From Eledone cirrhosa (lineage: Eukaryota), in contig OZ024766.1 of assembly GCA_964016885.1 (NCBI GenBank), positions 12,214,001-12,278,000 of the forward strand: 64,000 nucleotides of DNA, given 5' to 3'. The position numbers were made by a program, and so were the translations under genes. The notes under the pieces are model-generated. The model saw only the letters and a list, made by a program, of their open reading frames with translations, was not told the DNA's origin and searched no databases. Shown piece by piece: positions 24,129 through 26,070 of the stretch (position 1 is its first letter; each line of letters opens with the position of its first letter).

Positions 24129-26070
24129 TATAGACATAGAATATTCGAAAATATTCTGTATGTTTATAATAAACATTTTGAAGACCTAATCGCTATAGAA
24201 TAGAATACGTCACGTATTACAATTAGATTCTCGATAAAAGAAAGGGAAGTAATCTACGCGTTTCATTCTTGTTAGAATTCATCAGGACTACATATCCAGT
24301 GCTTTTATCGAGAATGACACAGCTAGAGACTTATAGAATACTTAGCTGTGTACAGGAACTGGTTTGAAAGAGCGGTTGCCGGTCCGGCAGAAATTAGAAA
24401 TTGGAATAAATGCTCTGAAATAGCGATATATATGTGAATATAGACATAGAATATTCGAAAATATTCTGTATGTTTATAATAAACATTTTGAAGACCTAAT
24501 CGCTATAGAATAGAATACGTCACGTATTACAATTAGATTCTCGATAAAAGAAAGGGAAGTAATCTACGCGTTTCATTCTTGTTAGAATTCATCAGGACTA
24601 CATATCCAGTGCTTTTATCGAGAATGACACAGCTAGAGACTTATAGAATACTTAGCTGTGTACAGGAACTGGTTTGAAAGAGCGGTTGCCGGTCCGGCAG
24701 AAATTAGAAATTGGAATAAATGCTCTGAAATAGCGATATATATGTGAATATAGACATAGAATATTCGAAAATATTCTGTATGTTTATAATGTCTATATTC
24801 ACATATATATCGCTATTTCAGAGCATTTATTCCAATTTCTAATTTCTGCCGGACCGGCAACCGCTCTTTCAAACCAGTTCCTGTACACAGCTAAGTATTC
24901 TATAAGTCTCTAGCTGTGTCATTCTCGATAAAAGCACTGGATATGTAGTCCTGATGAATACTAACAAGAATGAAACGCGTAGATTACTTCCCTTTCTTTT
25001 ATCGAGAATCTAATTGTAATACGTGACGTATTCTATTCTATAGCGATTAGGTCTTCAAAATGTTTATTATAAACATACAGAATATTTTCGAATATTCTAT
25101 GTCTATATTCACATATATATCGCTATTTCAGAGCATTTATTCCAATTTCTAATTTCTGCCGGACCGGCAACCGCTCTTTCAAACCAGTTCCTGTACACAG
25201 CTAAGTATTCTATAAGTCTCTAGCTGTGTCATTCTCGATAAAAGCACTGGATATGTAGTCCTGATGAATTCTAACAAGAATGAAACGCGTAGATTACTTC
25301 CCTTTCTTTTATCGAGAATCTAATTGTAATACGTGACGTATTCTATTCTATAGCGATTAGGTCTTCAAAATGTTTATTATAAACATACAGAATATTTTCG
25401 AATATTCTATGTCTATATTCACATATATATCGTTATTTCAGAGCATTTATTCCAATTTCTAATTTCTGCCGGACCGGCAACCGCTCTTTCAAACCAGTTC
25501 CTGTACACAGCTAAGTATTCTATAAGTCTCTAGCTGTGTCATTCTCGATAAAAGCACTGGATATGTAGTCCTGATGAATTCTAACAAGAATGAAACGCGT
25601 AGATTACTTCCCTTTCTTTTATCGAGAATCTAATTGTAATACGTGACGTATTCTATTCTATAGCGATTAGGTCTTCAAAATGTTTATTATAAACATACAG
25701 AATATTTTCGAATATTCTATGTCTATATTCACATATATATCGCTATTTCAGAGCATTTATTCCAATTTCTAATTTCTGCCGGACCGGCAACCGCTCTTTC
25801 AAACCAGTTCCTGTACACAGCTAAGTATTCTATAAGTCTCTAGCTGTGTCATTCTCGATAAAAGCACTGGATATGTAGTCCTGATGAATTCTAACAAGAA
25901 TGAAACGCGTAGATTACTTCCCTTTCTTTTATCGAGAATCTAATTGTAATACGTGACGTATTCTATTCTATAGCGATTAGGTCTTCAAAATGTTTATTAT
26001 AAACATACAGAATATTTTCGAATATTCTATGTCTATATTCACATATATATCGCTATTTCAGAGCATTTAT

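What the first reader, a model, noticed from the sequence alone, without database searches (positions are those of the whole stretch)
25231..25319. Array hammerhead combines an extended stem I with a palindromic 'dimer-type' stem III
Seen: the 6-bp stem I is continued by an internal loop (CACTGGATAT/TTCCCTTT, possible GGA/TCC pairing) and a perfect 14-bp helix. Loop II is AACA and stem III is only ACGCGT. Established: loop II to stem I bulge contacts accelerate natural HHRs, and short palindromic stem III HHRs work as dimers. Inference: cleavage needs two adjacent units, so multimers are processed while monomeric circles stay stable. The A-U closing pair of stem II (usually G-C) is also unusual.
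Basis: partly seen in the sequence, partly recalled or inferred. Interest (0 to 1): 0.75.

Follow-up and report, generated by a model that had tools for sequence, protein, structure and literature searches.

The report
Canonical dimer-type hammerhead in animal retrozyme
The motif has the full sequence of a self-cutting hammerhead RNA in the standard animal design, sits in a 310-base jumping repeat with about 17,800 copies, and likely cuts best when two units pair up, an idea already in print; sister insertions add genomic hints that a probably edited single RNA circle is copied into DNA.

Summary
The hammerhead at 25231-25319 is real: intact core, 6-bp stem I, bulge, 14-bp outer helix, ACGCGU stem III, predicted cut GUA at 25291/25292. 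It lies in a 310-bp non-LTR retrozyme with about 17,800 hammerhead copies. The 'unusual combination' is the published canonical metazoan type I hammerhead, and the 'multimers cut, circles spared' idea is in print (PMC4209133). Four repeat families in this genome share the blueprint, with covariation in stem I, the outer helix and the palindrome centre. Corrections: loop II is better read as the hexaloop UAACAA; most copies have a 16-bp outer helix; 78% of copies have U.U, not A-U, at the stem II base. A dimer mode is likely but unproven. Newt hammerheads also cut as monomers through the looped extension, and my genome-wide complementation test found nothing. Beyond the finding: insertions are two head-to-head arms with two fixed Penelope-type ends (26 of 27; 49 of 50). 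Three insertions carry an uncleavable G at the cut nucleotide in 9/9, 20/20 and 5/6 units, most simply edited circles. The scan already noted the two-arm anatomy and editing marks on other DNA of this genome. New member of a known kind.

The parts
25231..25319 (+). Full type I hammerhead motif (the finding), unit positions q132-q220 (q1 = 25100)
25231..25244 (+). Outer helix, 5' strand (pairs with 25306-25319; 14 bp here, 16 bp in most family copies)
25249..25254 (+). GGA (pairs with UCC 25299-25301) and UAU bulge; predicted loop-1 half of the loop 1/loop 2 tertiary contact together with U25298
   Evidence: motif description in PMC2632901
25255..25260 (+). Stem I, 5' strand (pairs with 25292-25297)
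   Evidence: 100% of cells paired, 5 of 6 pairs with two-sided change in 16 haplotypes of four families plus one divergent copy
25261..25267 (+). Catalytic core CUGAUGA (N7 varies U/A/C among copies)
25268..25281 (+). Stem II (4 bp, A10.1-U11.1 here; U.U in 78% of copies) with hexaloop UAACAA at 25272-25277
25282..25291 (+). GAA, palindromic stem III ACGCGU (25285-25290) and A17; predicted cut between 25291 and 25292
25100..25409 (+). One 310-bp retrozyme unit, non-coding
24789..26076 (+). Plus arm, 4.2 units, four hammerheads (24921-25009 with a T>A at 24960 in stem II; 25231-25319; 25541-25629; 25851-25939); outer end at q47 ('end B') into (AT)n
24125..24790 (-). Minus arm, 2.1 units, two hammerheads (24227-24315, 24537-24625); outer end at q12 ('end A') into (TA)n
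24789..24790 (.). Head-to-head inversion junction with 2-nt microhomology (q277/q310)

Best explanation
This is a canonical metazoan type I hammerhead in the 310-bp unit of a young non-LTR retrozyme, and it likely cuts efficiently only when two hammerheads pair their ACGCGU palindromes and swap stem I strands, while a lone copy is predicted to cut slowly. Shown here: the sequence, the fold, the copy numbers, the shared blueprint with covariation across four families, and the insertion anatomy. Inferred: read-through transcripts are cut to 310-nt monomers, ligated into circles and sometimes A-to-I edited. A Penelope-like element's endonuclease/RT would then cut (TA)n, prime on both DNA ends at two internal RNA sites 30-40 nt apart, and copy round the circle, leaving two head-to-head arms. 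The bulge/hexaloop contact would supply the usual rate enhancement, and the outer helix would stabilise it.
For: Blueprint shared by four families: stem I 100% paired with 5 of 6 pairs changed on both sides; palindrome centre GC/UA/UA/AU, self-complementary in 15 of 16 rows; bulge UA, 3' U and last loop A invariant. Outer helix: 3 pairs changed on both sides between the 310 and 466 families, plus 1 within the 466 family. A 1-bp monomer stem III costs +5.4 kcal/mol, and the isolated swapped dimer gains 8.7. The only palindrome-centre variant found in whole arrays is ACGUGU, which still self-pairs through G.U (6/6 and 14/14 copies, both arms); pair-breaking variants never occupy adjacent units. 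Literature: canonical description and dimer model; axolotl Amex1 monomer 6% cleaved in 1 h, dimer efficient. Circle and PLE steps: one A end plus one B end in 26 of 27 two-arm loci and 49 of 50, matching the two RT start sites and 30-40 nt tail of PLEs. Inner arm ends are not enriched at the cut site (2 of 164, expected 3.7). Locus-specific variants are repeated in all units of both arms. Whole-array A17>G occurs in three subfamilies.
Against: No cleavage or expression data. In a full two-unit transcript the double hammerhead lies 4.6 kcal/mol above the minimum and has a probability of about 1e-4, and it needs about 23-25 bp of stem I swapped (tertiary contacts not modelled). Newt hammerheads cut as monomers through the looped extension, and monomeric coral and mussel clones self-cleave. 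The complementation test found no whole-array core-dead insertion (0 at G5/G8/G12 against 1 at three control Gs), so it neither supports nor refutes. The ACGUGU arrays share a haplotype and probably have one origin. Arrays also grow after insertion by block duplication (periods 3, 5, 6, 10), so unit counts overstate RT rounds. One locus has arms that differ (L124). No PLE partner was identified here.
Confidence: 0.62

Rival explanations
1. Monomer-competent extended hammerhead. The bulge/hexaloop contact and the long outer helix let a single unit cut itself well enough, as in newt satellite 2. The palindrome is a secondary route or an inherited trait, and circles are protected by protein or RT binding rather than by needing a partner.
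For: Review passage that newt monomers cleave using internally looped helix I extensions. The local hairpin dominates the folding ensemble, P(stem I) 0.93, swapped form 1e-4. Cervera 2020 predicts free hammerheads in circles and invokes another block. No whole-array core-dead insertions were found.
Against: The palindrome centre stays self-complementary in four families, which only matters for pairing between two copies. The 1-bp stem III has predicted probability about 0. 78% of copies also carry U.U at the base of stem II, so a monomer would be weakened twice over. The axolotl analogue cleaved only 6% as a monomer.
Confidence: 0.25
2. Cleavage is dispensable. Arrays are copied from long uncut transcripts or expand at DNA level, and the hammerhead is mostly a passenger inherited from a Penelope terminal repeat.
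For: In vitro, hammerhead mutants do not affect insertion by the anole PLE. Three whole-array insertions have an uncleavable GUG. Post-insertion block duplications exist. Only 1 of 9 Xenopus retrozyme dimers cleaved in vitro.
Against: Core, bulge, loop and palindrome are conserved with covariation across four families whose stems otherwise differ. Within the family N7 varies array-wide while no catalytic position does. Locus-private variants repeat with period 1 in both arms, with no period-2 case in 69 loci, as expected from one monomer circle. Among the four own-site positions tested, the only whole-array change is A>G, the editing type.
Confidence: 0.1
3. Assembly artefact: the identical units and the inversion come from collapsed or fold-back reads.
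For: Near-identical units and microsatellite-rich flanks.
Against: 82 junctions in 80 regions, almost all at different phases, with 0-5 nt microhomology in 59 of 82. The arms have unequal lengths and different fixed ends, which fold-back reads would not give. Locus-specific haplotypes are shared by both arms. The unit is held in six public runs from four studies (one may be the source sample).
Confidence: 0.03

Closest known systems
Canonical metazoan type I hammerhead (Cervera and de la Pena 2014, PMC4209133; passages read)
   Same: 6-bp helix I, 4-bp helix II, conserved loop 1/loop 2 contact nucleotides, 1-2 bp helix III with a palindromic loop, tandem context; the dimer and circle-sparing model is stated there.
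   Different: Position 10.1-11.1 is U.U (78%) or A-U (22%) instead of G-C; GUA triplet; a long 14-16 bp outer helix is not specified in the passages read.
Axolotl retrozyme hammerheads HHR_Amex1 and HHR_Amex2, and newt satellite 2 (PMC7229834, parts 2-4 of 6 read; review PMC6155905, passages)
   Same: Amex1: one base pair plus palindromic tetraloop with full tertiary contacts, weak as a monomer and efficient as a dimer. Amex2: U.U at the base of helix II. Units of 330-350 bp, tens of thousands of copies. Newt: internally looped extension of helix I.
   Different: The majority form here puts both weakening features (palindromic helix III and U.U) in one motif, whereas axolotl has them in separate families. 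Activity and expression are untested here.
Schistosoma mansoni Sm-alpha hammerhead tertiary motif (PMC2632901, passages)
   Same: Internal loop in domain I (there UCCA:GUAC, here UUCC:AUAU) facing a hexaloop that ends in A (there CAAAUA, here UAACAA); the 5' U of loop 1 and the 3' A of loop 2 are invariant in 16 of 16 rows.
   Different: The contact is inferred from conservation, not from a structure. The extrahelical position is U or A among families.
Penelope-like element insertion signature (Frangieh 2024, PMC11167929, parts 1-2 of 4 read; Craig 2021, PMC8557442, passages; Li et al. preprint 10.64898/2026.07.22.740005, parts 1-2 of 5 and passages)
   Same: Inverted 5'-truncated copy, 30-40 bp tail at one end only, (TA)n targets, two internal RT start sites; retrozymes proposed to be non-autonomous PLE derivatives.
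   Different: Here both arms are multi-unit and non-coding. The parts read propose PLE mobilisation of retrozymes but do not show this end signature for them. No partner PLE was identified here.

Membership tests
Type I hammerhead ribozyme (canonical metazoan form) | Core CUGANGA...GAAA...UH with three helices, ends joined in stem I | tested here: met
Type I hammerhead ribozyme (canonical metazoan form) | 6-bp helix I and 4-bp helix II supported by covariation | tested here: met
   helix I 100% paired, 5 of 6 pairs with two-sided change; the three inner helix II pairs change on both sides; 10.1-11.1 is unpaired in 12 of 16 rows
Type I hammerhead ribozyme (canonical metazoan form) | Conserved loop 1/loop 2 contact nucleotides | tested here: met
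   invariant bulge UA, 3' U and last loop A; motif as described; the contact itself is not shown
Type I hammerhead ribozyme (canonical metazoan form) | Short palindromic helix III | tested here: met
   ACGCGU; centre self-complementary in 15 of 16 rows
Type I hammerhead ribozyme (canonical metazoan form) | G10.1-C11.1 base pair | tested here: not met
   A-U in 3,938 and U.U in 13,861 copies; U.U is a described active variant, so this does not exclude membership
Type I hammerhead ribozyme (canonical metazoan form) | Self-cleavage, faster as a dimer | not testable with these tools
   indirect tests were inconclusive
Rfam Hammerhead_HH9 (RF02275) | Score at or above gathering (52 bits) | tested here: not met
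   23.4 bits, E 5e-4; HH9 models a longer stem III, so the motif is not filed under it
Non-LTR retrozyme | Non-coding 150-450 bp tandem repeat, GC below 50%, one type I hammerhead per unit, dispersed loci | tested here: met
Non-LTR retrozyme | Expressed as linear and circular monomer RNA | tested here: inconclusive
   genomic signs of a monomer circle template; no direct RNA data
Non-autonomous Penelope-like element | Inverted 5'-truncated copy, 30-40 bp tail at one end, AT-rich target | tested here: met
Non-autonomous Penelope-like element | Autonomous partner with a matching RT start region in the same genome | not tested
   no protein search of the genome was made; eight window ORFs gave no RT or GIY-YIG Pfam hit

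The most novel reading that the evidence does not exclude
The genome is a natural in-vivo mutational scan of a doubly attenuated, dimer-only ribozyme. Each insertion is one 310-nt circle copied from both ends of a DNA break by a Penelope enzyme, so whole-array variants show which changes a circle can carry. Only G.U-preserving changes pass in stem I, the outer helix and the palindrome. A-to-I editing reaches even the scissile A17, which would slow re-cutting about 30-fold and is frozen as uncleavable GUG arrays. Editing and dimer dependence would together keep circles closed.
Probability: 0.3. Interest if true: 0.65.

Novelty: new member of a known kind. Interest (0 to 1): 0.38.

Why it matters
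The ribozyme design itself is ordinary. The value is in the system. About 1,500 or more very young insertions (estimated) give a genomic footprint for steps that the papers read only propose for retrozymes: PLE double priming and rolling-circle copying of a monomer circle. Natural pairs of alleles (A-U against U.U at the stem II base, ACGCGU against ACGUGU, A17 against G17) make the old monomer-versus-dimer question directly testable in one background. If edits at the cut nucleotide are real, they link ADAR activity to the lifetime of ribozyme circles.

Tried and rejected
(1) Trans-complementation test for the dimer mode. Whole-array G5/G8/G12 mutants would be expected if a neighbour's core cuts a unit. 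One search gave 62 mutant copies. The best candidate (L191, G12A) held the change in only 4 of 8 hammerheads and L192 in 2 of 3; none of the 7 test loci fetched was whole-array. Three control Gs gave 62 copies and one whole array. 0 against 1 is uninformative. (2) An apparent C>T strand bias in copy-private changes (76 against 18) was an artefact of end-A junctions at q11/q13. One search also had an off-by-one position error, corrected. (3) RT stalling at the outer helix: 19 of 164 inner ends fall in q204-221 against 9.5 expected (p 0.003 raw, about 0.10 after scanning correction with two helix-mirrored junctions removed); suggestive only. (4) Dimer-circle templates: no period-2 variant in 69 loci with four or more full units; identical-unit dimers would be invisible. 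(5) A17 editing as a dedicated lock: 3 of about 1,500 loci is close to my rough average per-A rate in the 90-locus sample (about 10 events, 92 As), so it is not shown to be targeted. (6) Expression: no RNA holder listed. Three runs of unrecorded kind each hold one 340-nt contig (unit plus 30) of the A-U type; not used as evidence. (7) The L103 row was cut by a junction and was dropped; one search crashed and was rerun. (8) Original newt papers, Lunse 2017 and Martick 2006 were not held; they are cited only through reviews. The supplement of PMC7229834 could not be read and may show similar hammerheads or insertion structures. (9) Searches for prior reports: (0 papers; listings only) showed no title on edited retrozyme circles or on this family. 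Subscription journals are not covered.

Full report
Observation. The motif is as described. It folds at -25.9 kcal/mol, z -5.07, with none of 200 shuffles as stable. Rfam finds nothing at gathering in the window, but HH9 aligns over the core at 23.4 bits, E 5e-4. The motif lies in a 310-bp tandem unit arranged as two head-to-head arms, 24125-24790 (minus) and 24789-26076 (plus), both ending in TA microsatellite. The 3.0-Gb genome holds 3,924 exact copies of the window's 31-nt core and 37,433 matches to a general core pattern against 311 for the reversed control.

Corrections to the anatomy. I extracted 818 hammerhead copies from 91 of 93 regions (some regions overlap the same locus). Most have G at q206, so the outer helix is 16 bp and the window's subfamily has lost one pair. 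Position 10.1 is U in 13,861 copies and A in 3,938, so the family norm is a U.U mismatch at the base of stem II. U10.1.U11.1 is a described active variant (PMC3088659, passage) and defines axolotl HHR_Amex2. Loop II is better read as the hexaloop UAACAA: the Rfam model does so, the published canonical helix II has 4 bp, and one haplotype reads AAAUAA. N7 varies among U, A and C, while no catalytic position varies array-wide in 90 loci.

Is the combination unusual? No. An anchored, gap-free comparison shows that four repeat families in this genome use one blueprint: three pairs, a UA(U/A) bulge, 6 bp, core, 4 bp, a hexaloop of the form UAAYRA in nearly all rows, GAA, a 6-nt palindrome, H, 6 bp, a single U and three pairs, followed by a long outer helix. 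The four are the 310-bp family, a 466-bp family, a roughly 490-bp family and an older dispersed family. On 16 haplotypes chosen by me, stem I is 100% paired with 5 of 6 pairs changed on both sides, and the palindrome centre is GC, UA or AU in 15 of 16 rows. No shuffle of 500 reached the paired fraction, and slid controls fell to 31-53% (rows are related, so this is not a probability). Between the 310 and 466 families three outer-helix pairs change on both sides, plus one within the 466 family (9 sequences). Within the 310 family the outer helix shows only one-sided A-U to G.U changes and the lost q206 pair. In print, PMC4209133 (passages) calls this the canonical metazoan hammerhead and states that dimers cleave while monomeric circles are spared. 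PMC7229834 (parts 2-4 of 6) shows it for axolotl Amex1: 6% monomer cleavage in an hour, efficient as a dimer. The bulge and hexaloop match the Schistosoma contact motif (PMC2632901, passages).

Does it need two units? For: closing a 1-bp stem III costs 5.4 kcal/mol, and the isolated strand-swapped dimer gains 8.7. A self-complementary centre in four families makes sense only for pairing between copies. Genome-wide, 30 and 34 of about 17,800 copies differ at the two centre bases. The only variant filling whole arrays is ACGUGU, which still self-pairs through G.U (6 of 6 and 14 of 14 copies, both arms, two loci of one haplotype). Pair-breaking variants were 4 of 20 and 2 of 17 units at the two multi-hit loci fetched; single hits were not fetched. 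These numbers are too small to be significant. Against: in a two-unit transcript the double hammerhead is 4.6 kcal/mol above the minimum, with probability about 1e-4, and needs the whole extended stem I swapped. Newt hammerheads also cleave as monomers using the looped extension (review PMC6155905). Cervera 2020 thinks circles are blocked by another mechanism. My complementation test found 0 whole-array core-dead insertions against 1 for control Gs. I put the dimer-preferring reading at about 0.6.

What the insertions show. Of 34 loci, 27 had two arms with both ends readable: 26 had one end at q9-21 (A) and the other at q36-52 (B), none had two of a kind, and 1 had an off-pattern end. Five loci had one arm and two had an unreadable end. 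Of 57 regions picked by their B end, 50 had two arms with both ends readable, and the other end was A in 49 (two B ends there were mislabelled by the script and are taken). This matches the PLE signature: two internal RT start sites, a 30-40 nt tail at one end, inverted copies and AT-rich targets (PMC11167929; PMC8557442). Inner ends are spread round the unit, 2 of 164 within 3 nt of the cut against 3.7 expected, and 59 of 82 junctions have 0-5 nt of microhomology. A template with a free end at the cut site would be expected to pile ends up there. Locus-specific variants repeat in all units of both arms, with no period-2 case in 69 loci. The scan noted this anatomy before on other DNA of this genome; the counts above are my own.

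Editing. Array-wide A>G changes fall at 6 of 16 As on the stem I and outer helix strands against 5 of 76 elsewhere (Fisher p 0.003; the region was chosen after seeing the data, and tolerance of G.U would give the same pattern). A>G against T>C is 11 to 5, p 0.08. A genome-wide search of four own-site positions gave 74 copies. The only whole-array change is A17>G, in 9 of 9, 20 of 20 and 5 of 6 hammerheads, both arms, in three different subfamilies. G at this position is not cleaved, and inosine is about 30-fold slower in an engineered hammerhead (PMC3923133, passages). A GUG parent could therefore not release a monomer. The simplest account is one edited monomer circle per insertion; editing before a slow cut, or after ligation, would both fit. 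The rate is not above my rough average for other As, so a dedicated lock is not shown. A search on retrozyme, A-to-I, ADAR and rolling circle listed no title on this (listing only).

Verdict. It is a new member of a known kind. The family's insertion ends and GUG arrays are the more interesting by-products. Cleavage, expression and the partner enzyme are untested. The organism was not determined here; earlier scan notes call it a cephalopod.

Noticed in passing
L199 (G000:C1:315291500-315298000), L200 (G000:C28:81389500-81396000), L201 (G000:C1483:19500-29400): Two-armed insertions with G at the scissile nucleotide (GUG) in 5/6, 9/9 and 20/20 hammerheads, in three subfamilies; likely copies of edited circles.
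   Followed up: yes
L194 (G000:C1:225665000-225671500): All 6 hammerheads have G at position 10.1 (G.U at the stem II base), possibly an edited A10.1, plus an array-wide G261T.
   Followed up: partly
L050 and L093; L043 and L137: Identical inversion junctions (q280/q207 and q98/q239) recur at unlinked loci of different subfamilies; in L050/L093 the A and B ends are swapped. Junction hot spots or conversion.
   Followed up: no
L082 and L101: The inversion junction uses the 14-16 nt self-complementarity of the hammerhead's outer helix as its overlap.
   Followed up: partly
L081, L090, L152, L083 (and L147): 311-nt subfamily with one extra base in the 3' strand of stem I next to the cut site, repeated in nearly all units.
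   Followed up: no
L191 (G000:C4:19684500-19690500): G12A in the 4 hammerheads nearest the inversion junction (both arms) but not in the 4 outer ones; conversion between arms or a template change.
   Followed up: partly
L034 (G000:C8:10098500-10105000): Insertion into a non-TA tandem repeat with an apparent 7-11 bp target duplication and one end at q141.
   Followed up: no
L189 (G000:C14:25020500-25030400): Large higher-order repeat built from 310-family units, with a neighbouring hammerhead family interleaved; expanded after insertion.
   Followed up: partly
L098 (G000:C1:14042500-14052400): 469-bp family array in which a palindrome-breaking ACUCGU alternates with ACUAGU over part of the array (4 of 14 full units); an old, heterogeneous array.
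   Followed up: partly
window 19702-19840: Short head-to-head fragment of another hammerhead family (U.U-type stem II base, different stem III) next to (TA)n; further hammerhead-like cores at 4834-5007 and 50660-50878 (inverted pairs), 6114, 16096, 29120, 37147, 58338 and 58601.
   Followed up: no
L164-L185; G000:C1 listing: An older dispersed hammerhead family with ACAUGU stem III and an A.A mismatch at 10.1-11.1; palindromic ACAUGU dominates the first 100 listed matches over non-palindromic centres.
   Followed up: partly
window 23500-23712: Inverted duplication of mixed microsatellite around a (TA)n run, about 400 bp left of the array.
   Followed up: no
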